A stretch of DNA of 64,000 bases from a virus. Within the stretch, counting starts at the first letter, position 1. The number at the start of each line of letters is the position of its first letter. This document shows, one piece after another, positions 4,022-29,153 of the stretch. The stretch lies in the IMG/VR virus record IMGVR_UViG_3300025141_016157, positions 96,347 to 160,346 of that record; one strand, written 5' to 3'. The notes below the pieces were generated by a model. The model was given only the letters and a program-made list of their open reading frames with translations. It did no database searches and was not told the origin of the DNA. A program made the position numbers and the translations under genes.

Positions 4022-4028
4022 ATATAAA

Positions 4029-6836: not shown

Positions 6837-6924
6837 TATAAAGTGTTGATCCCGCAAAGATCACCTTATAATCTAATTCAAGAGAAGTTGTATATTTATG
6901 ATATATAAATGATGGTGGAGCAGT

Positions 6925-7713: not shown

Positions 7714-7721
7714 TTAGATAC

Positions 7722-8357: not shown

Positions 8358-8360
8358 GCT

Positions 8361-9020: not shown

Positions 9021-9113
9021 TGAACAGTTTGCTAACCTTATATTAATATTATATACAGAACTACAAGGTGTACTATACTTGTGTTACTGAAGTTTAAAAA
9101 TAAAGGAAAAAAA

Positions 9114-9359: not shown

Positions 9360-9731
9360 ATGGAAGATAGACTCTTAGAAATATTTAGGAGAAGAGAATC
9401 TTTTATGAAGAGCCTTGGTGATTCTTCCGGAGAATCTATGAACTGGCCACTTGATTTATCAAAAAAAGAAAATCAGCAACATGTCAGGGATATGGCACTA
9501 AGAGGTGTCGAAGAGATGTTTGAAGCACTTCAGCATTTAAAAAACTGGAAACCTCATCGGAAAACAGAAATAACTGAATTTGATAGAGAAGAATTTCTTG
9601 AAGAGATTGTAGATGCATTTAATTATTTTCTATCGATTCTTGTCCTTACAGGATTTGATGATAATGATTTAATTGATGCATACAGAAGAAAAGACAAGAT
9701 TATAAATGAAAGATTGAGGACTGGATATTGA
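9360..9731 (+). CDS. All-alpha dimeric dUTPase/dCTPase (MazG superfamily, T4 gp56-like)
   Basis: EEMFEA..NWKPHR, EEIVDAFNYFLS, C-terminal NERLRTGY. Confidence 0.75.
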   Translation: MEDRLLEIFRRRESFMKSLGDSSGESMNWPLDLSKKENQQHVRDMALRGVEEMFEALQHLKNWKPHRKTEITEFDREEFLEEIVDAFNYFLSILVLTGFDDNDLIDAYRRKDKIINERLRTGY

Positions 9732-10639
9732 AAGTTAAAAAGCTATTTGAAGATCAGAATTATTTTTCAAAGATGATAGGTACTGTGTGTAACACATCAG
9801 AAGATCTTGATAACTTTACAAAAACCCTATCTCTTGCACTTCATAAAGAAGTAAGTGATCTTGTATCTGCTACTAACTATAGATCTCACACTGATGATAG
9901 TATGGTTCCAGATGCAGACAAGATACTTTTTGAATCAGTAGATGTAATTAGATATGCAGTAGCTATAATGAATGCGTGGAGCATAACTCCTGAAAAATTT
10001 CAAAAAGCATGGATACTAAAGGACAAGTATCTTTCACTTTCAAGAAAGATTGAAGGAAATACTTGGAAAGGGGAAAAAGTTGCAATTGTTGATATGGACG
10101 ATGTTCTTTGTGAGTTTAGAGTAGGATTTTCAAATTGGCTAAATAAAAACTACAGCGTTATAACTGATGTAGAATCAAAAGAGTATTATTTTATTAATGC
10201 TCTTGAAAAAGCAGGTATAAACCCAGAGGGAATATTTTTAAAATTTGTATCTGAAGATGGATTCTCATCTTTAAAGCCAGCATCCGGTGCAATAGATTTT
10301 ATTAAATCTCTTCAGGAGAAAGGTTATTTTATTCATATATTGACTGCAAGGCCAGGAGATAATCTAAGATGTCTTTATAATACACTTGACTGGCTTGACT
10401 CAAACAATGTCTGCTTTGACAAGGTTAGCTTCTCATCAGAAAAACTGAGATGGTGCATGCAATCAGAATACTGGTCATCAGGTGCAATAGAGTTTGCAAT
10501 AGATGATTCACCTAAACATGCAGCAGAATATGCAAAACATGATATAAGAGTTCTTTTGCCAAGAAAGACTTATAATACAGAGGTTCAAAGTCTTTCAAAT
10601 GTAATTGTCTATGATTCTTTCCTAGATATTGATATTTAA
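9728..10639 (+). CDS. Fusion: degenerate all-alpha NTP pyrophosphatase + HAD 5'(3')-deoxyribonucleotidase-like domain
   Basis: N-half KEVSDL..FESVDVIRY; C-half IVDMDDVL (HAD motif I), LTARP, K, IDDSP. Confidence 0.7.
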   Translation: MKVKKLFEDQNYFSKMIGTVCNTSEDLDNFTKTLSLALHKEVSDLVSATNYRSHTDDSMVPDADKILFESVDVIRYAVAIMNAWSITPEKFQKAWILKDKYLSLSRKIEGNTWKGEKVAIVDMDDVLCEFRVGFSNWLNKNYSVITDVESKEYYFINALEKAGINPEGIFLKFVSEDGFSSLKPASGAIDFIKSLQEKGYFIHILTARPGDNLRCLYNTLDWLDSNNVCFDKVSFSSEKLRWCMQSEYWSSGAIEFAIDDSPKHAAEYAKHDIRVLLPRKTYNTEVQSLSNVIVYDSFLDIDI

Positions 10640-12242: not shown

Positions 12243-13229
12243 ATGCCAAAAAATAAAAACTTAGAACCAGTTACTTTTCCAATGAAGATTAGATTTGACG
12301 AGGATCCGAGCACTGAGTTTAAGAATGATCTTGAATCAATTAATATTTCACTACTAGACCATCCCGACCCGCTTAGGGCAAGAAGGATGGTGTACCAATT
12401 TATTAATGCAACATGGGAAGATGAGCCCGGTCTTCACAATCCAGACGATGTAGATGACTGGAAGCTTTTTCAAGCACTAGAAGCTGCGCTTCAGTTCAAA
12501 GCTTTGCCTACAGTCTTGGAGACGCTTGATTTTACATTTAGAATTGAAGGAATCGATGTCCAGACAGTTACACATTTAATTCGGCATAGAACAGGATCTT
12601 TCTCTGCTCAGTGTACAGGAGACAGGTGGCAATCTCATGCAAATGCATTAGTTCCCGGTCCCATTCAGAATAGTCCTGAGATTTATGAAAGATGGAAAAG
12701 TCTAGTTGTTGAGTCAAAGAAGCTTTATTGTGACATGATTGATACAAGGAAGATTTCGATTATGGATGCACGAACAATTCTTCCAAAGTGTCTCGAGACA
12801 CATTATTACGCACGCTTTAATATGAAAGATCTTCTAAACTTTATTAGACAAAGAATGGATAAGCAAATTCAGCCAACAACTGACAATATTATTGCATATC
12901 AGATGTACTTAGCCGTTGCAAGAATATTTCCAGAAGTTACAACAGTCGTGAATATGCACTCACCTTCGAGACATTATGTTGCTACTGCAAGAACCGGAAA
13001 GGCAACAAATCTTTATTTTCCAGATAAAGATTCTGATTCGTTTGACTGGCACCCTAATGACTTTATCTACTCAGCATATCGCGATGAAGTAAATGGTACA
13101 GACCCAGATCTCGGCGGAAGAGAAAACTTTAAATTTTCAGAATTGGCATCAATGTACGATAGACAGGTCAATGACCTTGTAGAAAAGTACAATGAGTGGA
13201 AAGAAACTGTCGGATTTGAATCACCATAG
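12243..13229 (+). CDS. thyX: Flavin-dependent thymidylate synthase (ThyX)-like protein, divergent motif
   Basis: LETLDFTFRIEGI, HLIRHRTGSFS, DARTILP, LNFIRQR. Confidence 0.7.
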   Translation: MPKNKNLEPVTFPMKIRFDEDPSTEFKNDLESINISLLDHPDPLRARRMVYQFINATWEDEPGLHNPDDVDDWKLFQALEAALQFKALPTVLETLDFTFRIEGIDVQTVTHLIRHRTGSFSAQCTGDRWQSHANALVPGPIQNSPEIYERWKSLVVESKKLYCDMIDTRKISIMDARTILPKCLETHYYARFNMKDLLNFIRQRMDKQIQPTTDNIIAYQMYLAVARIFPEVTTVVNMHSPSRHYVATARTGKATNLYFPDKDSDSFDWHPNDFIYSAYRDEVNGTDPDLGGRENFKFSELASMYDRQVNDLVEKYNEWKETVGFESP

Positions 13230-14491: not shown

Positions 14492-14569
14492 TCACTTTTT
14501 CTAATTTATTTTAAAAACTACTTGCGACAAAGTTATAATCATCTATACTATAAACAAGGAGAAATAGTA

Positions 14570-15010
14570 ATGAAAGCGTATCTTGCAAGTTCATGGTTTA
14601 ACCCTGTTGCAAATCAAGAGGTTGATGATATTATCTCATCACTTGAGAACAATAACTTTGAGGTATTTTCACCTCGTGATTTTTTTGTTTGTCCGCCAAC
14701 TGCTGACCTGGCAACACAAAAGTCAACCTATGAGGGAAATCTTGAACATCTTCACAAGTGTGATTTTATGGTTTGTAATACTCATGGAAAAGATATGGGT
14801 TCAATTTTTGAAGCTGGATATTTTAAAGCACTTGAAAAGCCTATCGTTTATTTCTGCGCTGGGCTGCCCGCAGGGGCGGCATTCAACTTAATGTTGGCAC
14901 AGAGCGGAGTAAAAGTATGCACATCTATTGATGAGCTTAATGACTACATGGCACGCTGTAACTCAGAGGGTAAGCTTCTTTTCGAGCCATACTATGGAAA
15001 TATTGAGTAG
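14570..15010 (+). CDS. Nucleoside 2-deoxyribosyltransferase / nucleotide N-glycosidase family
   Basis: YLASSWF, VFSP, DMGSIFEAGY, FNLMLAQS; AAGGAG SD before ATG 14570. Confidence 0.8.
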   Translation: MKAYLASSWFNPVANQEVDDIISSLENNNFEVFSPRDFFVCPPTADLATQKSTYEGNLEHLHKCDFMVCNTHGKDMGSIFEAGYFKALEKPIVYFCAGLPAGAAFNLMLAQSGVKVCTSIDELNDYMARCNSEGKLLFEPYYGNIE

Positions 15011-15074: not shown

Positions 15075-18000
15075 ATGTCATCTATTATTAAACCCAAGAA
15101 GTTTGTCGGTCTACATGCACATTCTGGAACAGGTAGTCCGTATGACGGTCTTGGATATCCAAACCAGCATATTGACTTTGTCTTGTCAAATGAAATGAAT
15201 GCATGGGCACTGACTGATCACGGTAACGGTAACGGTCTTGCCCATGCACATGCTTATGCAAAGAAGCTAAAGAAGAAAGGTAGGGATTATCGACAGATTT
15301 ATGGTGTTGAGTTTTACTTTGTACCTTCATTGCTTGAATGGCGTGAATCTTACGAAGCACATCGTGAAGAAGTTCGTGCAGCAAGGTCTGAAAAGAAGTT
15401 AAAAGAGTCAACAGATATTAACTCTGAAGATGAGATTTCTGGAGGTCTTATAATTGAAAATGAAGATGAGACAAAAAATGATTTCGAGAAAAACGATTGG
15501 AAGAGGCGATATCACCTAGTTGTCATCGCAAAGAATCAAATTGGTCTACAGAATCTTTTCACTCTTGTCAAGAAGTCTTATACAGATGGTTTCTACAGAT
15601 TCCCTAGAATTGATTACAATCTTCTCAAGATGCACGGTGAGGGTCTTGTAGTAAGTACAGCATGCATTGGTGGCTATCCCTCATCTTTAATTGCTAGAGG
15701 GGAGGCAACAGGCAAGTCTGATAGTGATATTATTCTAGATTTAGAAAACATGTCTGATAGATTTATTGATGCCGTAGGCAGGAAAAACTTTAATCTAGAA
15801 GTTCAATTTAACTCTCTATCAATGCAACATAAAACCAATAAGCATCTTATTTCTCTACATGAGAAAACAGGTATACCGCTTGTCGCTACTGCTGATAGTC
15901 ACTACTATGGTAGAAATATGTGGGAAGCACGAGAATTGTATAGAAAACTCGGCCGCATGGGTGCAAGAGGAGATGCAATGCCGTCACTTCCAGCTTTTGA
16001 AGACTTGAAGTGTGAGCTCTATCCCAAGAATGCTGAACAAATGTGGGATGAGTATAAACAGCATGCTTCAAGCTATGATTTCTACAAGGGTAAAGATCAG
16101 CTAATAGCTGATGCAATTGAAAGATCTTACGATATTGCATGGGAACAATGCGAAGATGTCTGGTTTGATGAGGAGGCAAAGCTTCCAAGATTTGGTACAC
16201 CGACAGACTCAGCATTCAATCAGCTAGCACGAAGAGTTAAAGAGGCACTAGTTAAAGAAGACCTTCATAAAGATCAAGAATATGTTGATCGTGCAAAGAT
16301 GGAGCTAGATGATATCAAGTATCTTGGATTTGAAAACTATTTCCTAACTATGACAAAGGTTTTTGACCTAGCATCACAAAGCACTATTATCGGCCCAGGT
16401 CGCGGCTCTGGCGCTGGATCACTAGTTAACTACTTGCTAGGAATTACAACAACAGACCCGATTAAATATGGGCTTCTATGGGAGAGATTTCTTCACAGGG
16501 CAAAGGCAGGATGGCCAGACATTGATACAGATGCTGGTGATAGAGATGTCCTGATCAATGCTTCAAGAGAACTTTTCGGAGAAGAGTCTGTTGTTCCAGT
16601 TTCCAATTTTAATACACTTAAGCTTAAGTCCCTTGTTAAGGATGTTTCAAAGTTTTATGGTATTGACTTTGGCGAAGTTAACGCAATGACAAATACTTTA
16701 GAAAAAGATGTTATGCATAAAGCTATGGGTGATCATGAAGAAAGATCAACATATGTTCTTACACATGAAGATTGTATGAAGTACTCGCAGAAGTATTCTG
16801 ATTTTATGGATGAATACCCGAAGGTAAGTGAACATGTCCAGAATCTTTTTATGGAGTCTAGATCAATTGGTAGACATGCTGGGGGTGTTTTAATCTGCCC
16901 GAATCTCGAGAAGCATATGCCCGTTATTAAGGTAAGGGGCGAATTGCAAACACCATGGTCTGAAGGTATGAACTTTAGACATCTTGAAACAAACGGATTT
17001 CTTAAGTTTGATTTTCTCGGTCTAACAACACTTAAGATGGTCGAAGATTGTACAAGACTTATTCTTAGAAAGCAAGGCAATCTATCACCTACGTTTGCTG
17101 ATATTCAAAAGTTCTTTGATGAAAAGATGAATTGTAGATATAATGATCTTGATGATCAAAATGTATGGGAGCATGTTTACCATAAGGGTCGGTTTGTACA
17201 GGTATTCCAGTTTACCCAGCAAGGCGCAAGAAACTTTTGCACTTCTGCAAAGCCAAGTACTATTGAAGAATTAGCAACAATTACAGCAATCTATCGGCCA
17301 GGACCTCTTTCTGCTGGTGTTCATAGAAAGTACGTAAAAGCTAAGAAGTCAGTTGAGGATGGTAAACCTATTGAGTATGATCACCCTGTTATCGAAGAGA
17401 TTCTAAGCGAAACTTACGGCTTTATCTCGTTCCAAGAGCAGTTCATGCTCTTAGCACAGAAGCTAGCTAATTTTGACAAGGGTGCATCAGATAAGATGCG
17501 TAAGACACTAGTTAAGAAATCACTCGATTCAAATGCTGCAAAGGTTCAAGAAAGAATTGACCTTCACAAGAAGTTTGTCAACGGTGCAGTTGAGATATCT
17601 GGGATGGATAAGGACAAGGCTGAGAAGCTCTATGAGACAATTGAATTCTTCTCTGGGTATGGCTTCAATAAGTCGCATGCAGTGTCCTACGCCATTGATT
17701 CCTATTACTCTGCATGGCTTCACACATACTATGAAAAAGAATGGCTTGCAACATGCTTGCAAACACAAAATGGCTCTAGTAAGTTTGGAAAGGTCATCTC
17801 TGAGATTAAATCACTAGGATATACAATTTTACCGCCTGACATCAACGCCTCTTCTGATGTCTGGGTTTACAGTGATGAGAGGGGAGGCTTTGTCCCACCT
17901 CTAACAGCAATCAAGGGTGTTGGCGACGCTGCCGTTGCAGAGATTATGGAAAGGAGACCATTCTCCAGTCTTGATGAGATGATGTTTACTGAGGATGGCA

Positions 18001-18632
18001 AGTGGCGACCATCAAAGATGAACAAGACATGTTTTAGCTCACTTTCTTTGGTCGAGGCTTTTGGAAGCCTAGATGAGTTCAAAACTGGAAAGGTACTAAA
18101 TCACAGACAACTTTACACTGTTATCATTGACAACTATGACCTCCTTAAGAAGGGCAGACATGGAATGACAAAGACTGCTGTTAAGAAATTGTTAAAGGAA
18201 CAGGACTACATTCCAAACTTTATCGATATCAAGCTTAACGAGGTTGATGGAATGCCTGACTGGAATCGTGCAGAGAAGATTGGAAACAGTGTTGAATTAA
18301 TGGCAAGTGCAGATGAGACTCTTGTATTCCCGCCAAGAATTATGGCAAAGATTGAAAAGGCAGATGTTCGCCCAGTCACTGCACTCTCGGGAAAAGAAAG
18401 AGATATTGTCTGGTTCTGTATTCAAACAATGGAAGAGAGAACAACAAAGAACAACAAGAAGTTCTATCGGATGAAGGTCATGGATAATAACTCTGAGAGC
18501 TGCTGGCTCCGTGTCTGGGGTAGGTTTGATGATCCCCCTGACCTATATACCATGTGGCTGGCTGAAGTAGCTTCTACAGAGTCCTGGGGTTGTTCTACAT
18601 CATCATATAAGATGAAGAAGCTAGAGGTTTAG
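15075..18632 (+). CDS. dnaE: DNA polymerase III alpha subunit (family C) with PHP domain
   Basis: LHAHS, ALTDHG, ADSHY (PHP); GPGRGSGAGSLV, PDIDTD, GRHAGG, KFDFLGL, FQEQ, GYGFNKSHAVSY. Confidence 0.95.
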   Translation: MSSIIKPKKFVGLHAHSGTGSPYDGLGYPNQHIDFVLSNEMNAWALTDHGNGNGLAHAHAYAKKLKKKGRDYRQIYGVEFYFVPSLLEWRESYEAHREEVRAARSEKKLKESTDINSEDEISGGLIIENEDETKNDFEKNDWKRRYHLVVIAKNQIGLQNLFTLVKKSYTDGFYRFPRIDYNLLKMHGEGLVVSTACIGGYPSSLIARGEATGKSDSDIILDLENMSDRFIDAVGRKNFNLEVQFNSLSMQHKTNKHLISLHEKTGIPLVATADSHYYGRNMWEARELYRKLGRMGARGDAMPSLPAFEDLKCELYPKNAEQMWDEYKQHASSYDFYKGKDQLIADAIERSYDIAWEQCEDVWFDEEAKLPRFGTPTDSAFNQLARRVKEALVKEDLHKDQEYVDRAKMELDDIKYLGFENYFLTMTKVFDLASQSTIIGPGRGSGAGSLVNYLLGITTTDPIKYGLLWERFLHRAKAGWPDIDTDAGDRDVLINASRELFGEESVVPVSNFNTLKLKSLVKDVSKFYGIDFGEVNAMTNTLEKDVMHKAMGDHEERSTYVLTHEDCMKYSQKYSDFMDEYPKVSEHVQNLFMESRSIGRHAGGVLICPNLEKHMPVIKVRGELQTPWSEGMNFRHLETNGFLKFDFLGLTTLKMVEDCTRLILRKQGNLSPTFADIQKFFDEKMNCRYNDLDDQNVWEHVYHKGRFVQVFQFTQQGARNFCTSAKPSTIEELATITAIYRPGPLSAGVHRKYVKAKKSVEDGKPIEYDHPVIEEILSETYGFISFQEQFMLLAQKLANFDKGASDKMRKTLVKKSLDSNAAKVQERIDLHKKFVNGAVEISGMDKDKAEKLYETIEFFSGYGFNKSHAVSYAIDSYYSAWLHTYYEKEWLATCLQTQNGSSKFGKVISEIKSLGYTILPPDINASSDVWVYSDERGGFVPPLTAIKGVGDAAVAEIMERRPFSSLDEMMFTEDGKWRPSKMNKTCFSSLSLVEAFGSLDEFKTGKVLNHRQLYTVIIDNYDLLKKGRHGMTKTAVKKLLKEQDYIPNFIDIKLNEVDGMPDWNRAEKIGNSVELMASADETLVFPPRIMAKIEKADVRPVTALSGKERDIVWFCIQTMEERTTKNNKKFYRMKVMDNNSESCWLRVWGRFDDPPDLYTMWLAEVASTESWGCSTSSYKMKKLEV

Positions 18633-19995: not shown

Positions 19996-20008
19996 AACAA
20001 TTATTAAG

Positions 20009-20016
20009 AATAATTA
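20009..20016 (+). promoter_or_regulatory. AATANTTA motif (putative late promoter)
   Basis: AATAATTA 19 nt before ATG 20036. Confidence 0.5.
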
Positions 20017-20035
20017 TATTAAGAGCAAAGTTATT

Positions 20036-20968: not shown

Positions 20969-20969
20969 A

Positions 20970-23900
20970 ATGAAGATAACAGAATCCAGAATCAGAAGAA
21001 TCATAAGAGAAGAGCTTCTTAAAGAAGATAGCGAAGATACCGTTCTAGGAAAAATGAGCTGGCCCATGGCGCCTGGTGTCTCAGACCCGTTTGGTGAACT
21101 ACGATCCTCAAATCCCCCACCAGTTCTTTCAACATCAATGTGGTATGACCTCGATGGTGACGCAATGCTATCGAGTCATAAGATTGAATCAAAGAAATTT
21201 ATTGAACACCTTATGGATACTATAGAGCACAGAGGTGGAGTTGCAAACTCTGTTGCAAATGCTGGACACATCGCAGCTGTCTACAAGGAAATGGGTGTTG
21301 AGACGCGAATAGCTCCATACCCTGGGCCTAAGCATTGGGGTGCAGGAGATTATGAGTCATGGGGAGAGTTTCCAGGATCAGCAAGAAGTTTTTTTAAAAA
21401 GTATGACCCATGGGTTCTTGATGCGGACGAGATATTTCTCGTAACAGTTGATAATACTTCTTACAGGGCTCCTGGCCAAAAAGTTACAGAGATTGAACCT
21501 GAAGATATGGAGATGGGAGTTGAATACGGAGGAACAACTGATCCCGCAGCTGGCAAGATTAAGCGAGCACTTAGCTCTCTACTTGGTGACCTTACGCTTC
21601 CTGCCCATTACGATCCTTCACCAGTTCAACTGACCGCTGCTAAATCATGGCTGTCTCAATGGCTTCCAGGAGGAAATCCATCTCCTGAAATGGCTAGGGC
21701 AATGGCAGCTACAAATCCATACAATGCTGTCTGGGAAACATTTCTAGGTCCAATAAAAGAGTGTCTAAGCGGTCAAGCAGCTGCCAAAGAAGAAGCTACT
21801 CGAAGAGCATCAAAGCAGGATGATTTCTATTCTAGAGAAGGGGCAGACATAACCTTTGCTGGAGGAGCAACGTCAGAGGATACCCAGGCTGTTCTCAAAC
21901 AAATGCAAAAAACTGGGGAGGCAGAAAAGATATCAGATGAATCAATTGGGACTTCTTCTGCTGGTCTGTGTGCATCAGCCAGAGCATCAGAGCTTATAGC
22001 ATTGTTAGTTTTGCCATCTGGACAGTTTACTTTAGCCGGAAGGATTGCGCTAGCAGCTGGTCTCGTTCATCTTGCAAGAGGCTCTCACAGAGAGGCTATG
22101 TTTGAACTACTGCTTGGTGCATTTGAGATTGTAGCAGCAACCAAAGCGATTGTAAGATATACCGCAGTAGTTAAAAGTGCACTTAGGTCAGGAAAGCTTC
22201 CGGCAGATGACATTCTCGAAGAAATGATTAAAGCTGGAGTATTTGAAGAGCATGCTGATATAATAAGGCGGTTAGCAAGACAGCCAAAGATGGAGGAAGA
22301 AGTTCAAGCTATGCGCCAAGAGATGGCAAGAGTAATCGAGACAATGGATAGTACAGATCCCTTGAAGCCTTATCTGGATGCATATGTTAGAGGAGCCAGT
22401 TCAGATGAGCTTAGGGGAATATACAAGGCTGCCAAGGCTGAGATTGAGTCTGGAGCTCGCTGGGACATTCACACGTCAACTAGACGTGCAGCTGATATTG
22501 ATCCAGATGAGCTCGATGCGTGGCTAGAAAGACTTGAGGACTTACCGCTTACATCATCTCCTGGATCTAGAAAAGCTGTAATAGACAAGTATATAGAATC
22601 TCAGATCAGTATAAATAGAGCTCTGGAAGCTGAACAGGCAACAGCAAGAGGTGCAGGTCGAGGGAAATCGACTCCGGAAAATCCATGGGGAAAGGGTCCT
22701 GAGCCTAAAGCAATTAGACCCGCAGGATCTAAGGCGCCATTAGCACAAACAGCCAATATGGGAAGACAGATTATTGATTTAGCATATGCCAAATTACGAT
22801 CGATACCTGATGGTAAAATTTATAAGATTGCAAAATTCGAAAGAGGTCACTTCAGCGACGTTGATAGAATTGAAATTAGACTGGATGGTTTGTTTGATGT
22901 TGATGATATTGAAAAAATTGTTGACGACTCTCTCGGTGACTATCTAAACACGCTCACACCCCCGCAGGCATCAAGGTATAAGCAAGATGTTATTGAAGAA
23001 ATCCAAAACCTTGACTTTGTAGTAGGACCAAGGACTCCTGACAGGGTGGGACAATATGTCCAATCCGGACCTGGTCAAAGAGGCCAAGTCTGGGTTGAAC
23101 CGTTTGACAAAGAAGAGTGGAAGGCTATAGTAGGAACCAATAGAGATCGACCAGATTTTGAAGAAGCCGTTAAAAAAGCTTTTATCGACGCTCTAGATTC
23201 TGGAACAAAATTTGATTTGCCAGAGCAGGTGAGAAATACACTTTCTCATGAACTTGGTCACTGGATAGACCTCACTATCGAGGGAAATAAATATGATCAC
23301 CTTATTGTAGATTCAAATGGAATTCCCATGAGGGAAATCGATGGCAAGCAGATGACATTTGATCAAGCTGTCAAAGAAAGAAAAGTTAAAACAATAGAAG
23401 AATGGCTACAGGACCCGCCGGATATCTTTGGAGATTTCGTAACGCAACCCTGGCATGGAAGAATTGGGGAGCTAGATGCTGAAATAACAAGAGGCGTAAC
23501 AGATTTTCAAGATTCCCTAGAGGCATCAATTAAAAGAATTCGTGACCTTGATGATCAATATAAGCTTCCCTGGGATATCTCTCCCAGAAAGCCGCCGCGA
23601 GATCAACAGCCAGTAGCATCTGATAGTCCGTCAGCATGGGATAGAAGAAGTACTACCAAACACCCATCACAGACTACTCGCAGACAAGAGCCGAAAAAAT
23701 GGGATGATGCAGAGACAAAGTCAGCAATGCACAAAGAAGAGATGGCAGAGATCGGCTTGGACGAACTAGATTATACATATCAAATATTGACTGATAAAGA
23801 TCTATTTAGGGATATATTTGTCGGAGACTACTTTCCTATTGAGCCTAACCGTGGGTATCTTGATGATTATGGATGGGTAGGAAGTGCAGAAAATATCGTA

Positions 23901-24047
23901 GATCAAAAGATTGATGACGTTCTTTTCGAACCTGGCGGATTATGGGACTGGGCTAGAAAGGAAGCAGGAATAAACGTTGAGTACATTGACATGCAGGAGT
24001 CAGTTGTATATGTGTCTCGGTGGATGAAACTTGCAGGTATAAAATGA
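20970..24047 (+). CDS. Large tagged protein with hydrophobic hairpin and C-terminal HEXXH peptidase-like domain
   Basis: MKITESRIRRIIREELLKE; LSHELGHWID...ELDAE; ends MQESVVYVSRWMKLAGIK. Confidence 0.7.
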   Translation: MKITESRIRRIIREELLKEDSEDTVLGKMSWPMAPGVSDPFGELRSSNPPPVLSTSMWYDLDGDAMLSSHKIESKKFIEHLMDTIEHRGGVANSVANAGHIAAVYKEMGVETRIAPYPGPKHWGAGDYESWGEFPGSARSFFKKYDPWVLDADEIFLVTVDNTSYRAPGQKVTEIEPEDMEMGVEYGGTTDPAAGKIKRALSSLLGDLTLPAHYDPSPVQLTAAKSWLSQWLPGGNPSPEMARAMAATNPYNAVWETFLGPIKECLSGQAAAKEEATRRASKQDDFYSREGADITFAGGATSEDTQAVLKQMQKTGEAEKISDESIGTSSAGLCASARASELIALLVLPSGQFTLAGRIALAAGLVHLARGSHREAMFELLLGAFEIVAATKAIVRYTAVVKSALRSGKLPADDILEEMIKAGVFEEHADIIRRLARQPKMEEEVQAMRQEMARVIETMDSTDPLKPYLDAYVRGASSDELRGIYKAAKAEIESGARWDIHTSTRRAADIDPDELDAWLERLEDLPLTSSPGSRKAVIDKYIESQISINRALEAEQATARGAGRGKSTPENPWGKGPEPKAIRPAGSKAPLAQTANMGRQIIDLAYAKLRSIPDGKIYKIAKFERGHFSDVDRIEIRLDGLFDVDDIEKIVDDSLGDYLNTLTPPQASRYKQDVIEEIQNLDFVVGPRTPDRVGQYVQSGPGQRGQVWVEPFDKEEWKAIVGTNRDRPDFEEAVKKAFIDALDSGTKFDLPEQVRNTLSHELGHWIDLTIEGNKYDHLIVDSNGIPMREIDGKQMTFDQAVKERKVKTIEEWLQDPPDIFGDFVTQPWHGRIGELDAEITRGVTDFQDSLEASIKRIRDLDDQYKLPWDISPRKPPRDQQPVASDSPSAWDRRSTTKHPSQTTRRQEPKKWDDAETKSAMHKEEMAEIGLDELDYTYQILTDKDLFRDIFVGDYFPIEPNRGYLDDYGWVGSAENIVDQKIDDVLFEPGGLWDWARKEAGINVEYIDMQESVVYVSRWMKLAGIK

Positions 24048-24193
24048 AGATAAAAGGTGCCACCCAGGCTCACAAGGGTCATCTTGATTTCGAAGATGAT
24101 GAAGAAATAGACATCGAATTTGATGATTACGATTCTCCATTCACTACAGACTTCTGTGAAATGTTTCCTGATCACCCGAAATGCAGAGATTAA
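24044..24193 (+). CDS. 49-aa acidic microprotein with C-x8-C tail (not in ORF track)
   Basis: ATGA overlap with upstream stop; MKIKGATQAHKGHLDFEDDEEIDIEFDDYDSPFTTDFCEMFPDHPKCRD. Confidence 0.6.
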   Translation: MKIKGATQAHKGHLDFEDDEEIDIEFDDYDSPFTTDFCEMFPDHPKCRD

Positions 24194-24238
24194 TTTATAT
24201 CAAATCTTAAAAACTTTAAACTATCATGTTATAATAAT

Positions 24239-25147
24239 ATGATGTTAATGTTTCCAACACAAAATTTATTTATCGAAGGTCCTGACTGTTCAGGAAAGAC
24301 AACACTCGTTAGAAATATTCACGATCTTTCCAGATACAAATGGCATATTCATGATAGATCTCAGATATCAAGAAAGATCTTTAAGTATGAATACAGTAGA
24401 AATCTTTACTATTCTGACGATGATTTTCACAGGGAGATTTTTAATCTTAACAATAGGTTTATTTTTCTACTCCCAGATATTGAAATAATAAAAGATAGAT
24501 TTAAATTGAGAGGGGATAATATTCACAAGAGTATAAGCGATATTGAAAAAGTTTATCATCTTTTTAAAGAAGAGCTTGAGCGTATCTCCAGTTTACCAAA
24601 TATTATACCGTGTTTCTCAGTTGCGACACCCAGGGCTGTTGAAGCTCTATGCACAACGCTGTCTCTAATAGAAAGAACAATGCTGAGAGAAGTTTCAGAT
24701 CAAGTTATAAAATCTGTCAATTTTTGTGGTGATGAATGCTTTCCTATTGAGTTTACTCTGTACGACAATGGAATGTTTGAAGAGGCAGATCCATTATCAA
24801 TGAGATATAAGCCCGAGGAGGAGTATTATGAAAAAATCTATGATAGAGTTCACAATAAAATTACAAATGAAATGCTGGGAAAAAATGAGTATAGTAGAAC
24901 AGAATCATTTTTATCAAGAAGATTTGTTTATTCCGATGATAGTTGCATATCATTTATTCAGCTTTCAGTAAGAAAAAATGTTATGGATTTTCACACAGTA
25001 ATAAGATCAACAGACGTCAAGAATATCTTTCCTCATGATCTTAAATTTTTATACTATCTTGCATCAACATGTTACAAAAGGTTCAAAGATAAGTGTAGTT
25101 CAGCAAGGCTTCGTTTTAATTTGAACTCTGCACACATAATTAGTTAA
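24239..25147 (+). CDS. Fusion: dNMP (thymidylate-type) kinase + minimal thymidylate synthase/dCMP hydroxymethylase-like domain
   Basis: EGPDCSGKTT and DRS (TMPK); SRR, SCISFIQ, RSTDVKNIFPHD, SAH (TS fold). Confidence 0.75.
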   Translation: MMLMFPTQNLFIEGPDCSGKTTLVRNIHDLSRYKWHIHDRSQISRKIFKYEYSRNLYYSDDDFHREIFNLNNRFIFLLPDIEIIKDRFKLRGDNIHKSISDIEKVYHLFKEELERISSLPNIIPCFSVATPRAVEALCTTLSLIERTMLREVSDQVIKSVNFCGDECFPIEFTLYDNGMFEEADPLSMRYKPEEEYYEKIYDRVHNKITNEMLGKNEYSRTESFLSRRFVYSDDSCISFIQLSVRKNVMDFHTVIRSTDVKNIFPHDLKFLYYLASTCYKRFKDKCSSARLRFNLNSAHIIS

Positions 25148-25173
25148 AATAATAATATAGGATTGGAGAATTT

Positions 25174-26184
25174 ATGAGAGCACTAATCACAGGAGGTTGC
25201 GGATTTATTGGATCAAATCTTGCAAAAGCTCTTGTATCAAATGGCTGGACAGTAGACGTAGTAGATAATATGTCAGCAGGATCAATTTCTGCACTTGATA
25301 ACTTAAAGATAAGACAATTACCCAATGCAAGCTTTTTACCACATTTTTATGAAAGTACTACTGGGACGGAAAGGGAAAGGATGCAAGATGAAATCTTGGT
25401 CATACCCGACGATCTTTCGCATGAATCAGTTTTAAATCATATAAGATCAAAAATGTATGATATTGTCTTTCATCAGGCAGCAATACCACGAGTAAGCTAC
25501 TCAGTTGAAAATCCTGCAGAAACCACATACGAAAATATTACAAAAACAGTTTCACTTTTTGAAGCTTGTAATGGAAATGTTAAAAGGGTCGTCTGGGCAT
25601 CTTCATCTTCAGTATATGGTGGCGCAAAGATTCTTCCAACTCCAGAATCAGAAAGAGGAAAGATGCTACCTCTTTCTCCATACGCCTGGCAAAAATTTGC
25701 GATTGAAGACTTTTCAAAGATTTGTGGAACACTCTATAATTTAGACATAGTGTGTTTAAGATATTTTAATGTTTTTGGACCTGGTCAGCTTGGAGACTCT
25801 CCGTATGCAACTGCAATATCTGCATGGTGCAATGCTGTAAAGAAAGGTTGCGGCCTTAGGAGTGACGGAGACGGCAATCAATCAAGAGATCTCTGCTATA
25901 TAGAAAATGTTATCCATGCTAATATTCTAGCTGCTACTTCAAGTAAGACATTTAACGGTAGATGCTATAATGTAGCTTGCGGAGATAGAGTTTCAAATAA
26001 TGAAATATTAGAGTTTTTTACTAATAAATTTGATGCTAGTATTATAAATGCACCTGAGAGACCTGGTGATGTCAAGCATACACAGGCAGATATAACTAGA
26101 ATACAAGATGAGCTTGGGTATTCACCAATTGTTGAATTTTGGGAAGGTCTAGATAAAACTATCAAATGGTGGGGTCTTGAGTGA
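25174..26184 (+). CDS. NAD-dependent NDP-sugar epimerase/dehydratase (extended SDR)
   Basis: ITGGCGFIGS, ASSSSVYG, SPYAWQK (YxxxK), LRYFNVFGP, GDGNQSRD. Confidence 0.9.
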   Translation: MRALITGGCGFIGSNLAKALVSNGWTVDVVDNMSAGSISALDNLKIRQLPNASFLPHFYESTTGTERERMQDEILVIPDDLSHESVLNHIRSKMYDIVFHQAAIPRVSYSVENPAETTYENITKTVSLFEACNGNVKRVVWASSSSVYGGAKILPTPESERGKMLPLSPYAWQKFAIEDFSKICGTLYNLDIVCLRYFNVFGPGQLGDSPYATAISAWCNAVKKGCGLRSDGDGNQSRDLCYIENVIHANILAATSSKTFNGRCYNVACGDRVSNNEILEFFTNKFDASIINAPERPGDVKHTQADITRIQDELGYSPIVEFWEGLDKTIKWWGLE

Positions 26185-26606
26185 GTATTAAAATTCCAAA
26201 ACATGTAAAATCTTCATGGGTAAAAAAAGGCATGTCAAAGCCAATACAAAAACCGTGGGGCCATGAATATGTGTGGGCAGGATTTTCAGGAATTCATGGA
26301 AAATCTCTATTTATAAAAAAAGATCATAGAACAAGCTTTAAGTATCATAGTTTAAAAACTGAAGTTTTGTTTCTTCAAAAAGGAACAGCAGAAGTTACGT
26401 TTGGCGATGAATACTCATTACGAGATCCAGTTGGACACCCATTTAAAATAGAAATCATTGATGCCGGAAGCTCTCTAATGGTACAGTCAAATTGCCCCTA
26501 TAGAATAAAAGCAATATCTGACTGTGAGATTATTGAAATAGGTAATAACTCATCAGATACACCAGTAAGAATAGAAGATGACTACGGAAGAATAGAAAAT
26601 GAATAG
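26181..26606 (+). CDS. Cupin (mannose-6-phosphate isomerase/sugar isomerase-like)
   Basis: KPWGHE, TSFKYH..KTE, IIEIG, VRIEDDYGR. Confidence 0.75.
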   Translation: MSIKIPKHVKSSWVKKGMSKPIQKPWGHEYVWAGFSGIHGKSLFIKKDHRTSFKYHSLKTEVLFLQKGTAEVTFGDEYSLRDPVGHPFKIEIIDAGSSLMVQSNCPYRIKAISDCEIIEIGNNSSDTPVRIEDDYGRIENE

Positions 26607-27168
26607 AATGCCAGAATTTATTATATTTACAGGTCCAATGTTTGGAGCAAAAACAAGCAGGCTACTAGCAACAATTGATAGATTTTCATATCAAAATAGA
26701 AAAGTAATAGCATTTAAACCTAAAATAGATAGAAGATATTCGCAGACAGATATAACAACACATAACGGAATTTCTATTGAAGCACATGCTGTCAATACAG
26801 GTGAAGATATAGTATCTCAGGTTCTTGAAAGAGAAGATTGCATAGACGTTGTAGCTGTTGATGAAGCATTTATGATAGAAGATTGTGCAGATTCCCTGTT
26901 AAAGCTATTTAGAATGGGAAAGACAATAGTAGTTTCATCTCTTCAGCTGTCTGCATCTGGAAATGTTTTTACAGAGATTAGAGATATGATGCCATGGGCA
27001 ACCAAGATAGAAGTTTGTCCAGCAGTTTGCACTGTTTCTGGTCATGATGCATATTATACACACAAGAAGGTAGATGATCTTGCAGAAATTACTGTTGGTG
27101 GATCAGAGCTTTATGAACCTCGTTCATGGAAACATCATTCCTTCATGAATCAAACTTTTAAAAATTGA
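26599..27168 (+). CDS. tdk: Thymidine kinase
   Basis: GPMFGAKT, KPKIDRRY, VAVDEA, AVC, VGGSELYEPR. Confidence 0.88.
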   Translation: MNRMPEFIIFTGPMFGAKTSRLLATIDRFSYQNRKVIAFKPKIDRRYSQTDITTHNGISIEAHAVNTGEDIVSQVLEREDCIDVVAVDEAFMIEDCADSLLKLFRMGKTIVVSSLQLSASGNVFTEIRDMMPWATKIEVCPAVCTVSGHDAYYTHKKVDDLAEITVGGSELYEPRSWKHHSFMNQTFKN

Positions 27169-27175
27169 GAAAAAA

Positions 27176-28090
27176 ATGATTGAACCTACTAGTGTAAATT
27201 GCGTAATTTATCATGCTGATTGTACCGATGGTTTTGGTGCTGCTTATGCCGCATGGAAATGCTTGGGCAATAGAGCTGAATATCATCCATGTAAGCACGG
27301 CATGGATACACCAGACATAACGGGAAAAAGCGTTGTTATTTTAGATTTTTCCTTTGACAACTCAACAACAAAAAAAATGATTTCTGATGCTGAGTCATTG
27401 CTTGTAATTGACCATCATAAATCTGCAATGGTTGAGTTGCATGATATTACTAATACTCGTTTTGATATGACTAAGAGCGGAGCAATGCTAGCTTGGGAAT
27501 TTTTTCATCCCGGGAAAGAACCTCCAAAGTTCATCCAGTATATTCAAGATAGAGATCTTTGGAAGTGGGAACTCCCATACTCAAGAGAGTTTGCAGCAGC
27601 GTTTGACATGGTACCATTTGAGTTTGAAGAATTTGAGAAGTTTGAAGATGATTCTGTATTTGATGATGCTAGAAAGAGAGGGTCCTTTATCCTAGCTTAT
27701 TCTAAGACAGTTGTTAAGAAAGTGTGTGAAAAAGCATCACCTCGAAAAATGATGGGAAAGGATGTAATGGTGGTAAATGCTTCACACTGGATGTCAGAGA
27801 TTGGAGCTAGACTAGCTCCTGACTGTGATCTTGCTATGATATGGTACTGGGATCATGATGCAAAGCATACAAAAGTTAGCCTAAGAGCGTTTCATGATAC
27901 CGTAGACGTTTCAGAGATAGCTAAGAAATTTGGCGGAGGCGGGCATAGAAAAGCAGCGGGATTTCAACTTCCAAAAAATAAGCATGTAGAAGATTTATTT
28001 GATAAGCCAAAGCCTGCAAAGAAGAAGAGGGTGACAAGGCCAAAAACTAAAGCAAAGCAAGATCAGCAAAAAAAAGATGATGAAAAATAA
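27176..28090 (+). CDS. DHH/DHHA1 phosphoesterase
   Basis: YHADCTDG, ILDF, IDHH, QDRDLW, SLR, GGGGHRKAAG. Confidence 0.88.
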   Translation: MIEPTSVNCVIYHADCTDGFGAAYAAWKCLGNRAEYHPCKHGMDTPDITGKSVVILDFSFDNSTTKKMISDAESLLVIDHHKSAMVELHDITNTRFDMTKSGAMLAWEFFHPGKEPPKFIQYIQDRDLWKWELPYSREFAAAFDMVPFEFEEFEKFEDDSVFDDARKRGSFILAYSKTVVKKVCEKASPRKMMGKDVMVVNASHWMSEIGARLAPDCDLAMIWYWDHDAKHTKVSLRAFHDTVDVSEIAKKFGGGGHRKAAGFQLPKNKHVEDLFDKPKPAKKKRVTRPKTKAKQDQQKKDDEK

Positions 28091-28101
28091 GGTTATAGCC
28101 A

Positions 28102-28743
28102 ATGTCAACTATATTTGAAAAAGATGGAAGAAGAATTCTATTTGTTCATATTCCTAAGTGCTCCGGTACATCTGTTAGAATGATGCTCCAGGAGGAAGGG
28201 TGGAAACCTCAACCTCAGCATATAATAAGGCCAACATTCTTTATCACAGGAGAGTTTGCTGGTCCCGTTACGTCTAATCATCAGCACGCAGAGATGAGAA
28301 ATGACTGGATTTCAAAATGGGATTATGAGTTTGCACTTGTAAGAAATCCATATGATAGATTAGTATCTCGTGGAAAACAGTCAGCAAGAAGGCTAAAGCT
28401 TACTTATATCAAAGAAGTTAATTTTTTTGCTTGGGCAGATGATGTTCTAGGAAGAGTTATGAGAAAAGAGGGTCCCGGCGCAGAAGATAATCACTACAGA
28501 CCACAAGTAGAATTTATTTCAGATAAAACTCAATGGTTTAGAATGGAAGACCAGAAAGAGCTTTTTTTAGAAACCCTTAGAAAGGAGAATATAATATCAA
28601 ACACTGCAAAGCTTGGCGTTTTTAACAAATCTCTTTCTGAGAATAATGAGTATAGCTTTAATTGGGGTATGTTTCCCGATATCCACAAAAGATTTTTAGA
28701 TAAATACAAAAAAGATTTTGACGTATTTGGATATAAAATATGA
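28102..28743 (+). CDS. Sulfotransferase family 2-like protein
   Basis: FVHIPKCSGTS, VRNPYDRLVS, HYRPQ, DFDVFGY. Confidence 0.8.
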   Translation: MSTIFEKDGRRILFVHIPKCSGTSVRMMLQEEGWKPQPQHIIRPTFFITGEFAGPVTSNHQHAEMRNDWISKWDYEFALVRNPYDRLVSRGKQSARRLKLTYIKEVNFFAWADDVLGRVMRKEGPGAEDNHYRPQVEFISDKTQWFRMEDQKELFLETLRKENIISNTAKLGVFNKSLSENNEYSFNWGMFPDIHKRFLDKYKKDFDVFGYKI

Positions 28744-29153
28744 AAAGGCCGACGTGGAATAAAATATGGCTAGAGTTTGCAAACTCTATATCAAAAAGAT
28801 CATATGATCCAAGGTACAGAGTTGGAGCAGTAATAGTAACAGAAGATAACACACAGGTTTTATCAGTAGGGTATAATGGTAACTATGCAGGAGGGCCAAA
28901 TCAAGTTGAATCTACAGTTCCAGGAGAGTCTGGAATGATACATGCTGAAATTAATGCTTTGCTTAAAATGGATTATAATAATCCAAAGTCTAAAAAGTTA
29001 TACCTTACTTTATCACCGTGCAGAATGTGTGCAAAGGCAATAATAAATGCAGGAATATCAGAAGTTTTTTATTCCGAGATCTATAGAGATGATTCATCTC
29101 TTAAAATTCTAGATGAGTCGGGAATAAAACATAAGCTAATTCAATTAGAGTAA
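28740..29153 (+). CDS. dCMP deaminase
   Basis: VGAVIV, GYNG, HAEINA, SPCRMC. Confidence 0.9.
   Translation: MKRPTWNKIWLEFANSISKRSYDPRYRVGAVIVTEDNTQVLSVGYNGNYAGGPNQVESTVPGESGMIHAEINALLKMDYNNPKSKKLYLTLSPCRMCAKAIINAGISEVFYSEIYRDDSSLKILDESGIKHKLIQLE

What the first reader, a model, noticed from the sequence alone, without database searches (positions are those of the whole stretch)
24239..29153. Seven-gene nucleotide/sugar cluster resembling a hypermodified-cytosine pathway in a DnaE phage
Seen: contiguous kinase-TS fusion, NDP-sugar epimerase, sugar-isomerase-like cupin, thymidine kinase, DHH phosphoesterase, sulfotransferase and dCMP deaminase. Elsewhere in the window are a dCTPase/dUTPase-like pair, ThyX-like and NDT genes. 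Established: T4-type cytosine replacement uses dCTPase + dCMP-modifying TS homolog + dNMP kinase + dCMP deaminase, then sugar transfer. Inference: the same logic here, possibly with a sugar and/or sulfate decoration, but replicated by a family C polymerase. Caveat: no glycosyltransferase is visible in this window.
Basis: inference. Interest (0 to 1): 0.72.

Follow-up and report, generated by a model that had tools for sequence, protein, structure and literature searches.

The report
Phage cytosine-modifying kinase-synthase gene cluster
An uncultured marine phage carries, just after its DNA polymerase gene, a conserved block of nucleotide genes led by a kinase fused to a stripped-down thymidylate-synthase-like enzyme that looks built to alter cytosine nucleotides, but the neighbouring sugar and sulfate genes are later, variable add-ons and nothing ties them to the DNA.

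Summary
All seven genes are present at the stated coordinates and have the stated identities. They are not one seven-step pathway.

- **Conservation.** I compared 62 non-redundant related phage loci. dCMP deaminase (60), thymidine kinase (56), epimerase (51) and DHH (46) usually follow the kinase-TS fusion. The cupin follows in 23 and the sulfotransferase in only 3, at varying positions. A methyltransferase often fills the sulfotransferase slot.
- **The informative gene.** The fusion joins a thymidylate-kinase/YorR-like domain to a 155-residue minimal thymidylate-synthase fold. The catalytic Cys is invariant, as is Asp at the E. coli Asn177 position, the dCMP signature. The model predicts a TS-type dimer.
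- **Known parallel.** Characterised 5-hydroxycytosine phages (RB69, DLP3, RL38J1) pair a YorR-like kinase gene with their TS homologue.
- **Most likely reading (about 0.5).** The phage makes a C5-altered dCMP before replication and phosphorylates it.
- **Caveats.** The domain lacks the usual cofactor-binding parts, so the chemistry is unknown.
- **Sugar link.** No glycosyltransferase lies in the window. Two GT4 genes lie elsewhere in the genome. A near-complete relative that keeps the cluster has none detected.

The scan reached the same reading of the fusion earlier on another genome.

The parts
24207..24235 (+). Promoter-like site (TTAAAA-17-TATAAT with TG) directly before the fusion gene. 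A terminator-like hairpin lies at 24067-24080.
   Evidence: This is a consensus match only; the total number of sites in the region is not above the shuffled expectation.
24239..25147 (+). kinTS: a TMPK/YorR-like nucleotide kinase (residues 1-145) fused to a minimal thymidylate-synthase-fold domain (about 147-302).
25174..26184 (+). SDR NDP-sugar 4-epimerase of the WbgU/WbpP/TviC type.
26181..26606 (+). Small cupin, remotely like the type II phosphomannose-isomerase C-terminal cupin. The family has no invariant His.
26599..27168 (+). Thymidine kinase (TK1 type).
27176..28090 (+). DHH/DHHA1 phosphoesterase (NrnA/RecJ-like).
28102..28743 (+). Sulfotransfer_2-family sulfotransferase, occupying a variable slot.
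28740..29153 (+). dCMP deaminase.
15075..18632 (+). DnaE-type family C DNA polymerase. It lies upstream of kinTS in 70 of 70 relatives with enough upstream sequence.
9360..9731 (+). Small all-alpha NTP pyrophosphatase of Pfam dUTPase_2, the same family and the same profile region as T4 gp56 dCTPase. Candidate dCTPase or dUTPase.
9728..10639 (+). dUTPase_2-like domain fused to an NT5C 5'-deoxynucleotidase domain.
12243..13229 (+). Divergent ThyX-like flavin-dependent thymidylate synthase. It has Cys where the RHR-x7-S motif has Ser.
14522..15010 (+). Nucleoside 2-deoxyribosyltransferase-family protein.

Best explanation
The stretch is a composite built in three layers.

1. **Old core.** DnaE, kinTS, thymidine kinase and dCMP deaminase form a pyrimidine deoxynucleotide module, usually with a DHH phosphoesterase.
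2. **Sugar genes added in subclades.** These are a UDP-HexNAc-type 4-epimerase and, in a smaller subclade, a small cupin.
3. **A hypervariable slot.** It holds a sulfotransferase here and methyltransferases or nothing in relatives.

kinTS is the only gene that points to non-canonical DNA. The proposed mechanism is as follows. The minimal TS-fold domain forms a TS-type dimer and binds dCMP. Its invariant Cys attacks C6, which activates C5, and a substituent is added there. The fused TMPK-like domain then phosphorylates the altered dCMP to the diphosphate, host NDP kinase makes the triphosphate, and DnaE incorporates it. dUTPase_2-family pyrophosphatases may keep dCTP low. dCMP deaminase, ThyX and TK supply dTTP, as their counterparts do in T4.

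Shown here: the folds, the motifs, their conservation, the synteny and the predicted dimer. Inferred: the substrate, the chemistry, incorporation into DNA and any later decoration.
For: - **Fold.** The AF2 model has pLDDT 95.4. The TS fold scores Z about 11-11.7 (rmsd 2.9-3.2, 137-145 aligned) against AfhB 9iqu/9iqc, MilA and L. casei TS. The kinase fold scores Z 13.0-13.1 (rmsd 2.9-3.0, 135-139 aligned) against YorR and M. mycoides dAK.
- **Motif block.** hhalign aligns the Cys..RSxD..D..SAH block to T4 gp42 and RB69 gp48.
- **Conservation over 187 unique homologues.** Cys236 is present in 187/187, Arg227 in 187/187, Arg228 in 186/187, Arg256 and Ser257 in 186/186, and Asp267 (E. coli Asn177) in 186/186. 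His299, Glu193 and the kinase motifs (P-loop, DRS, R87, R91-G-D) are essentially invariant. The position equivalent to E. coli L143 is Asp/Glu in 132.
- **Dimer.** The homodimer scores ipSAE 0.88 against a best control of 0.01. That mark was reached by 20 of 30 proteins solved as pairs of one chain and 1 of 23 solved as single chains. Runs agree in at least 91% of contacts and the partner pLDDT is at least 90. Arg227/228 touch Arg256/Ser297 of the partner, as in TS. TS dimers are solved structures, so this pass may partly reflect likeness to them.
- **Published parallel.** PMC13326640 reports that N177D sets dCMP specificity. It also shows that RB69, DLP3 and RL38J1 each encode a YorR/TMPK-like kinase next to their dCMP-modifying TS homologue, beside the DNA polymerase and the sugar genes.
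- **Split and stand-alone forms.** A split kinase plus mini-TS pair exists in L091. Stand-alone mini-TS genes sit in nucleotide modules of PolB and PolA phages, one of them next to a 5-hmdU-DNA-kinase-like protein.
- **Synteny.**
- **dUTPase_2 proteins.** The family is shared with T4 gp56, and these proteins co-occur with a trimeric dUTPase in 3 relatives.
Against: - The TS-like domain has about 155 residues, against 238-264 in characterised enzymes.
- It lacks the helical insert and the C-terminus that bind folate in ThyA.
- PF00303 does not match anywhere in the record, even at E 10.
- A profile of the protein finds no TS among PDB sequences.
- No cofactor can be named.
- TK, dCMP deaminase and ThyX occur in many phages with ordinary DNA.
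- The specificity of the dUTPase_2 proteins is unknown, and this record has no other dUTPase.
- No chemistry or DNA data exist for this uncultured lineage.
Confidence: 0.5

Rival explanations
1. Ordinary dNTP-supply and salvage module with unrelated sugar genes. On this reading kinTS is the phage's dNMP kinase. Its TS-like domain either feeds thymidylate synthesis (for example dCMP to 5-methyl-dCMP, then deamination to dTMP) or acts as a nucleotide-binding regulatory domain. The DNA is canonical. The epimerase, cupin and sulfotransferase modify host or virion glycans.
For: - TK, dCMP deaminase, ThyX, RNR, NDT, NT5C and DHH are all salvage or supply enzymes.
- Relatives insert further plain nucleotide genes into the same block: trimeric dUTPase, a phosphoribosyltransferase and a GMP-reductase-like gene.
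- The genome is A+T-rich (GC 37%), so high dTTP demand is plausible.
Against: - The catalytic Cys, the dimer-completing Arg pair and the cytosine-specifying Asp are invariant in 186-187 sequences down to 28% identity. That argues for a working dCMP-directed active site, not a relic.
- A ThyX is already present.
- The polar residue at the L143 position is not the methylating signature described in PMC13326640.
Confidence: 0.28
2. All seven genes form one pathway that yields a sugar- and/or sulfate-decorated cytosine in DNA. The epimerase and cupin make the NDP-sugar donor, and the sulfotransferase tailors the attached sugar.
For: - The epimerase directly follows kinTS in most relatives (51 of 62). 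In RB69, sugar-nucleotide genes likewise sit between the polymerase and the TS homologue.
- The variable slot holds tailoring enzymes (sulfotransferase, Methyltransf_24), as expected under an arms race.
- The DNA arabinosyltransferases of RB69 and DLP3 resemble GT-B glycosyltransferases such as BshA, PimA, MshA and sucrose-phosphate synthase, which I recall are GT4-family enzymes.
- This genome has a tandem GT4 pair, one member of which matches PF20706 GT4-conflict, beside a PD-(D/E)XK nuclease.
- In one relative a DNA N6/N4 methylase occupies the epimerase position.
Against: - All seven genes co-occur in only 2 of 62 loci. The sulfotransferase is in 3 of 62 and at different positions, and the cupin is in 23 of 62.
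- Distant relatives keep kinTS without any sugar gene.
- No GT lies in the window.
- An 87%-complete relative with kinTS, epimerase and cupin has no PF00534 match.
- The cupin has no specific sugar-enzyme match.
Confidence: 0.1
3. kinTS makes a modified pyrimidine nucleotide that is not put into DNA. It could be a free base or nucleotide with a signalling or inhibitory role, by analogy with MilA/MilB. There a TS homologue hydroxymethylates CMP and an NDT-family hydrolase releases the base.
For: - An NDT-family gene accompanies kinTS in 46 of 70 loci, and accompanies the stand-alone mini-TS in L090.
- MilA is among the structural matches (Z 11.2, rmsd 3.2, 137 aligned).
- That MilB belongs to the NDT family is from my own knowledge.
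Against: - The fused NMP-kinase domain points toward the triphosphate, not toward base release.
- The gene is tightly linked to the replicative polymerase in 70 of 70 loci.
Confidence: 0.07

Closest known systems
5-hydroxy-dCMP synthase clusters of phages RB69 (gp45 + gp48), DLP3 (gp78 + gp80), RL38J1 (gp214 + gp216) and HY126 AfhB (PDB 9iqu/9iqc); PMC13326640
   Same: - A TS-fold enzyme with the catalytic Cys, Asp at the N177 position and an acidic residue at the L143 position.
- A YorR/TMPK-like kinase partner.
- A position next to the DNA polymerase gene, with sugar-nucleotide genes nearby.
- AfhB is the top Foldseek hit (E 5.4e-06) and the top TS-fold VIA hit (Z 11.7, rmsd 2.9, 144 aligned).
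   Different: - Kinase and TS domain are one polypeptide here.
- The TS domain is about 80 residues shorter.
- This phage has Asp, not the diagnostic Asn, at the D169 position, although 65 of 187 relatives have Asn.
- There is no adjacent glycosyltransferase, arabinose genes or T4-gp1-type dNMP kinase.
- The polymerase is DnaE, not family B.
T4 dCMP hydroxymethylase pathway (gp42, gp1, gp56, cd, alpha/beta-gt)
   Same: - The overall logic: NTP pyrophosphatase of the gp56 Pfam family, dCMP-directed TS homologue, dNMP kinase, dCMP deaminase and TK.
- This phage's signature residues match gp42 at all three positions (Asp at the L143, D169 and N177 positions).
   Different: - gp42 is a 246-residue folate enzyme recognised by PF00303. 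The domain here is not recognised and lacks the folate-binding segments.
- Kinase fusion.
- ThyX instead of Td.
- No demonstrated DNA glucosyltransferase.
Bacillus subtilis SPbeta YorR (PDB 2axp/3kb2) and thymidylate kinases
   Same: - The N-terminal domain matches the YorR sequence (E 1.6e-05) and fold (Z 13.0, rmsd 2.9, 139 aligned).
- It has the EGxDxxGKTT P-loop and DRS motifs.
   Different: YorR is a stand-alone protein of unknown substrate. Here the domain packs rigidly against a TS-fold domain (pTM 0.91).
WbgU / WbpP / TviC UDP-HexNAc(A) 4-epimerases
   Same: The epimerase gene matches WbgU at E 1.5e-48, WbpP at E 7.7e-42 and TviC at 175 bits.
   Different: The score is far below the TviC equivalog cut-off (760 bits). 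The substrate is undetermined, and the gene sits in a replication operon rather than a polysaccharide cluster.

Membership tests
Thymidylate synthase superfamily (ThyA / dCMP hydroxymethylase / 5hodCMP synthase) | TS fold with the catalytic Cys, the Arg pair from the partner subunit, and the RSxD motif | tested here: met
   Fold Z 11-11.7 (rmsd 2.9-3.2, 137-145 aligned). Cys236, Arg227/228 and Arg256/Ser257 are invariant or nearly so in 187 sequences. The motif block aligns to gp42 and gp48. The predicted dimer is of TS type.
Thymidylate synthase superfamily (ThyA / dCMP hydroxymethylase / 5hodCMP synthase) | Full-length domain with the cofactor (folate or flavin) binding segments, recognised by Pfam PF00303 | tested here: not met
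   The domain has about 155 residues against 238-264. PF00303 has no match in the record at E 10. There is no Pfam hit and no TS among PDB sequence hits.
dCMP-directed TS homologues | Asp at the E. coli Asn177 position | tested here: met
   Asp267 in 186/186 homologues. The residue's significance is taken from PMC13326640.
5hodCMP synthases (AfhB, RB69 gp48) | Asn at the E. coli Asp169 position (diagnostic D169N) | tested here: not met
   This phage has Asp259. The family splits D 107, N 65, E 14, by clade.
5hodCMP synthases (AfhB, RB69 gp48) | Bound flavin and O2-dependent hydroxylation | not testable with these tools
   Needs purified protein.
T4-type cytosine replacement pathway | dCTPase that removes dCTP from the pool | tested here: inconclusive
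   Two dUTPase_2-family proteins were found. The small one scores 23.5 bits on the same profile region as T4 gp56 (25.4 bits). They co-occur with a trimeric dUTPase in 3 relatives. Their specificity is unknown.
T4-type cytosine replacement pathway | dNMP kinase for the modified nucleotide | tested here: inconclusive
   The fused TMPK/YorR-like domain has invariant catalytic motifs. Its substrate was not tested.
T4-type cytosine replacement pathway | DNA glycosyltransferase acting on the modified base | tested here: inconclusive
   None lies in the window. Two GT4 genes lie at genome positions 6720-9147, with unknown target. A GT4 pair was found in 4 of 9 long relatives. None was detected in an 87%-complete relative that keeps the cluster.
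T4-type cytosine replacement pathway | Non-canonical cytosine in virion DNA | not testable with these tools
   The lineage is uncultured and known only from assembled sequence.
NDP-sugar 4-epimerase (extended SDR) | Pfam Epimerase domain and similarity to solved UDP-HexNAc 4-epimerases | tested here: met
   PF01370 at E 5.7e-43. WbgU at E 1.5e-48 and WbpP at E 7.7e-42.
Type II phosphomannose isomerase-like cupin (PF01050) | Cupin fold with conserved metal-binding His/Glu residues and a family-level profile match | tested here: inconclusive
   The cupin fold is confirmed. There is no Pfam hit. TIGR01479 scores E 0.0045. Atlas neighbours carry PF01050 in 33-88% of members. The family has no invariant His.
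Sulfotransfer_2 sulfotransferases | Pfam match above the gathering score | tested here: met
   32.8 bits against a cut-off of 22, and phrog_3347 at E 6.5e-19. No solved relative was found by sequence.

The most novel reading that the evidence does not exclude
[quoted passage not shown] The D/N/E switch at the Asp169 position would set different products in different subclades. In this phage's subclade the base would then carry a HexNAc-type sugar that is sulfated or methylated according to the variable slot. That would be the first sulfated DNA base.
Probability: 0.07. Interest if true: 0.9.

Novelty: new variant of a known kind. Interest (0 to 1): 0.6.

Why it matters
- **Scale.** The kinase-mini-TS fusion is not a curiosity of one contig. 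A profile of its TS-like domain finds 373 cluster representatives. Many of the close homologues come from Tara Oceans and other ocean metagenomes, on contigs of up to about 280 kb.
- **If the fusion makes an altered cytosine.** A large group of ocean phages would then have non-canonical DNA. This would affect restriction and CRISPR escape, and could affect how well they are recovered in sequencing surveys.
- **For enzymology.** It would define a minimal TS scaffold working without the usual folate-binding parts.
- **For annotation.** The sugar and sulfate genes should not be read as part of a DNA pathway on adjacency alone.

Tried and rejected
- **Cultured relatives.** DNA and protein searches of GenBank phages found no relative of the cluster or of kinTS. 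The best DnaE hit is about 31% identical. No cultured phage can therefore lend chemistry.
- **Sequence link to TS.** A PDB sequence search with the kinTS profile found only kinases.
- **Cupin.** Foldseek returned only generic cupins such as vicilins, quercetinase and oxalate decarboxylase, so no sugar-enzyme assignment follows.
- **Sulfotransferase.** It has no solved relative by sequence.
- **Unknown ORFs.** PHROGs and Pfam gave nothing for the three ORFs between DnaE and kinTS or for several small neighbours.
- **Other glycosyltransferases.** PF00535 (GT2) has no match in the record.
- **Literature.** The searches found the 5hoC paper but nothing on a kinase-mini-TS fusion.
- **GT4 and epimerase correlation.** I tried to correlate GT4 presence with epimerase presence across long relatives. 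The records are too incomplete (11-100%) for a verdict.
- **Kinase likeness to RB69 gp45.** hhalign supports it only over the P-loop (25 columns). The likeness is therefore at fold level.

Full report
**Setting**

The window is the last 64 kb of a single 160,346-bp IMG/VR virus record. GC is 37% and CheckV estimates 58% completeness. The record has no close relative among 50,697 GenBank phage records. The cluster DNA and the fusion protein find nothing there, and DnaE is at most about 31% identical to any hit. The window also encodes a DnaB-like helicase, class II RNR, ClpP, a PLP enzyme, GroEL and a GMP-reductase-like protein.

**Observation**

Seven tightly packed + strand ORFs occupy 24239-29153, and their identities are as stated.
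- Epimerase: PF01370, E 5.7e-43.
- TK: E 2.9e-33.
- DHH: DHHA1/DHH, and phrog_4771 at E 2e-78.
- Sulfotransferase: Sulfotransfer_2 at 32.8 bits against a cut-off of 22.
- dCMP deaminase: E 1e-20.
- The first gene has no Pfam hit, but it folds with high confidence (pLDDT 95.4, pTM 0.91) into two domains, described below.
- The 141-residue protein is a confident cupin (pLDDT 92).

A promoter-like site lies just before the first gene, preceded by a hairpin. This is a consensus match only.

**The fusion protein (kinTS)**

*Kinase domain.* Residues 6-147 match deoxynucleoside and thymidylate kinases and SPbeta YorR. The fold scores are Z 13.1 (rmsd 3.0, 135 aligned) for M. mycoides dAK and Z 13.0 (rmsd 2.9, 139 aligned) for YorR 3kb2. 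The YorR sequence match is E 1.6e-05.

*TS-like domain.* Residues 147-302 match the TS fold. HY126 AfhB (9iqu) is the best Foldseek hit (E 5.4e-06) and scores Z 11.7 (rmsd 2.9, 144 aligned). MilA and L. casei TS score Z about 11 (rmsd 3.1-3.2, 137-142 aligned). T4 dCMP hydroxymethylase also appears among the Foldseek hits.

*Motif alignment.* Profile comparison aligns one ungapped block to T4 gp42 and RB69 gp48. The block runs from the catalytic Cys through RSxD and the specificity Asp to the SAH motif.

*Conservation.* I examined 187 unique homologues, down to 28% identity.
- Cys236 is present in 187/187 and Arg227 in 187/187.
- Arg228 is present in 186/187.
- Arg256 and Ser257 are present in 186/186.
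- Asp267, at the E. coli Asn177 position, is present in 186/186.
- Glu193 is present in 187/187. His299 and the kinase P-loop, DRS and lid motifs are essentially invariant.

*Meaning of the signature residues.* According to PMC13326640:
- N177D sets dCMP specificity.
- An acidic residue at L143 marks non-methyl products.
- D169N is diagnostic of flavin-dependent 5-hydroxy-dCMP synthases.

This phage has Asp at all three positions, which is the T4 gp42 pattern. The family as a whole varies at the D169 position (D 107, N 65, E 14), and the variation follows clades.

*Dimer.* The model supports a homodimer, with ipSAE 0.88 against a best control of 0.01. That mark was reached by 20 of 30 proteins solved as pairs of one chain and 1 of 23 solved as single chains. 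Runs agree in at least 91% of contacts and the partner pLDDT is at least 90. The interface is the TS-type sheet, with Arg227/228 reaching Arg256/Ser297 of the partner. TS dimers are well represented among solved structures, so this pass may partly reflect likeness.

*Against simple membership.*
- The domain has about 155 residues, against 238-264 in characterised enzymes.
- It lacks the helical insert and the C-terminus that hold folate in ThyA.
- PF00303 does not detect it anywhere in the record.
- PDB sequence profiles do not detect any TS.

**How widespread it is, and its other forms**

kinTS has 256 near-length homologues in the 90%-identity cluster collection. Many of them are from ocean metagenomes such as Tara. 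A profile of the TS-like domain finds 373 cluster representatives. Most are fusions of about 300 residues, but stand-alone proteins of 165-185 residues with the same motifs also exist. Their contexts are informative.
- L091 (a PolA phage) has, in order: dUTPase_2, a short ThyA homologue, Thy1, an HAD nucleotidase-like protein, a small P-loop kinase overlapping the mini-TS, then dCMP deaminase. This is a split version of the fusion.
- L090 (a PolB phage) has a TMPK-like kinase, NDT, an HD nucleotidase, ThyX and the mini-TS directly before the polymerase.
- L089 has a protein with the 5-hmdU DNA kinase helical domain (28.6 bits, cut-off 25) directly upstream of the mini-TS.

In the characterised 5hoC phages, a YorR/TMPK-like kinase gene lies next to the TS homologue. 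The pairs are RB69 gp45/gp48, DLP3 gp78/gp80 and RL38J1 gp214/gp216. The fusion here therefore links two partners already known to travel together in cytosine-modification clusters.

**Is it a seven-gene unit?**

I fetched 79 IMG/VR loci and 4 other contigs carrying kinTS, at 28-72% identity. Among non-redundant loci with at least 7 kb downstream (n = 62), the counts are:

| Gene | Loci (of 62) |
|---|---|
| dCMP deaminase | 60 |
| TK | 56 |
| Epimerase | 51 |
| DHH | 46 |
| Cupin | 23 |
| Sulfotransferase | 3 |
| All seven genes | 2 |
| Six genes (all but the sulfotransferase) | 23 |

DnaE lies upstream in 70 of 70 loci with enough upstream sequence. These counts rest on single-query tblastn at E 1e-5, so very divergent copies may be missed. 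The more distant relatives mostly read kinTS-TK-deaminase, and a few lack even TK.

The slot between DHH and the deaminase holds different genes in different relatives. It holds Methyltransf_24 proteins, a weak Sulfotransfer_3-like protein (below the Pfam cut-off), a class II aldolase, unknown proteins, or nothing. Other positions in the block hold a trimeric dUTPase, a phosphoribosyltransferase, a GMP-reductase-like gene, a second SDR and, once, a DNA N6/N4 methylase.

The block is therefore a mosaic. It has a conserved pyrimidine core with sugar-type and nucleotide-type genes inserted at different depths of the phage tree.

**The sugar genes**

The epimerase is closest to the UDP-HexNAc 4-epimerases WbgU (E 1.5e-48) and WbpP (E 7.7e-42), and to TviC.

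The cupin resembles type II phosphomannose-isomerase cupins only remotely. Its family has no invariant His, and its fold matches only generic cupins.

The window has no glycosyltransferase. Genome positions 124-9147 hold a separate operon. It encodes:
- an RmlA-like nucleotidyltransferase;
- a PIG-L deacetylase;
- a WbqC-like protein;
- a UDP-glucose dehydrogenase-like protein;
- a second SDR;
- a QueF-like protein;
- a PD-(D/E)XK nuclease;
- two GT4 glycosyltransferases, one of which matches PF20706.

A GT4 pair recurs in four of nine long relatives. It was not detected in an 87%-complete relative that keeps kinTS, the epimerase and the cupin. I cannot decide between DNA and protein targets.

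**Pool-control genes**

T4 gp56 and the 123-residue protein at 9360-9731 hit the same C-terminal part of PF08761, at 25.4 and 23.5 bits. The next gene fuses such a domain to an NT5C nucleotidase. Three relatives that carry a canonical trimeric dUTPase beside kinTS also carry these small dUTPase_2-like proteins. This suggests a different specificity. This record itself has no trimeric dUTPase, so a plain dUTPase role is not excluded.

The ThyX-like protein is divergent (56.6 bits against a cut-off of 87.9). It has Cys at the Ser position of the RHR-x7-S motif.

**Verdict**

The best reading (about 0.5) has two parts:
- kinTS is a bifunctional enzyme that modifies dCMP at C5 and phosphorylates the product for incorporation by DnaE.
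- It sits inside an otherwise ordinary dNTP-supply module, and the sugar, cupin and sulfotransferase genes are accessory additions of unknown target.

The chemistry (hydroxymethyl, hydroxyl or other) cannot be named, because the cofactor site is missing or rebuilt.

The scan reached the same reading of the fusion earlier on another genome (e1-5410215, e1-5410221).

Noticed in passing
window 18664-24047: Three large ORFs (443, 342 and 1025 aa) with no Pfam or PHROG match lie between DnaE and kinTS. In most relatives DnaE directly abuts kinTS, so this is a 5.4-kb lineage-specific insertion. Only L001 and L007 share the largest ORF.
   Followed up: partly
window 12243-13229: The ThyX-like protein has 328 aa, with N- and C-terminal extensions. 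It has Cys where the ThyX RHR-x7-S motif has Ser, and it scores below the TIGR02170 cut-off.
   Followed up: partly
window 9728-10639: A single ORF fuses a dUTPase_2-like NTP pyrophosphatase domain to an NT5C 5'-deoxynucleotidase domain. This could take a dNTP all the way to the nucleoside.
   Followed up: no
L088 (genome 5112-9147): A QueF-like protein and a PD-(D/E)XK nuclease sit between the sugar-nucleotide genes and a tandem GT4 pair. The first GT4 matches PF20706 'GT4 in conflict systems' (30.5 bits).
   Followed up: partly
L089 2-1307: In an unrelated small contig, a stand-alone mini-TS (186 aa) overlaps the end of a gene whose product carries the 5-hmdU DNA kinase helical domain (PF18723, 28.6 bits).
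   Followed up: no
L091 3485-8980: A PolA phage carries both a short canonical ThyA homologue (222 aa, PF00303) and a stand-alone mini-TS. It also carries Thy1, dUTPase_2, an HAD nucleotidase-like protein, a small kinase and dCMP deaminase.
   Followed up: no
L054 10942-11733: In one relative, a DNA N6/N4 methyltransferase (PF01555, E 6e-43) occupies the position directly after kinTS, where the epimerase normally sits.
   Followed up: no
window 4979-5842 and 28102-28743: A PLP-dependent (cysteine-synthase-type PALP) enzyme and a sulfotransferase are in the same window. The PALP gene was seen near kinTS in only one relative. A possible link through sulfur metabolism was not examined.
   Followed up: no
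window 52472-53509: A GMP-reductase/IMPDH-family gene (E 1e-107) lies 25 kb downstream here. Seven relatives carry an unidentified ORF of 340-356 aa between the epimerase and the cupin or TK. In the one checked (L004) that ORF carries the IMPDH domain.
   Followed up: no
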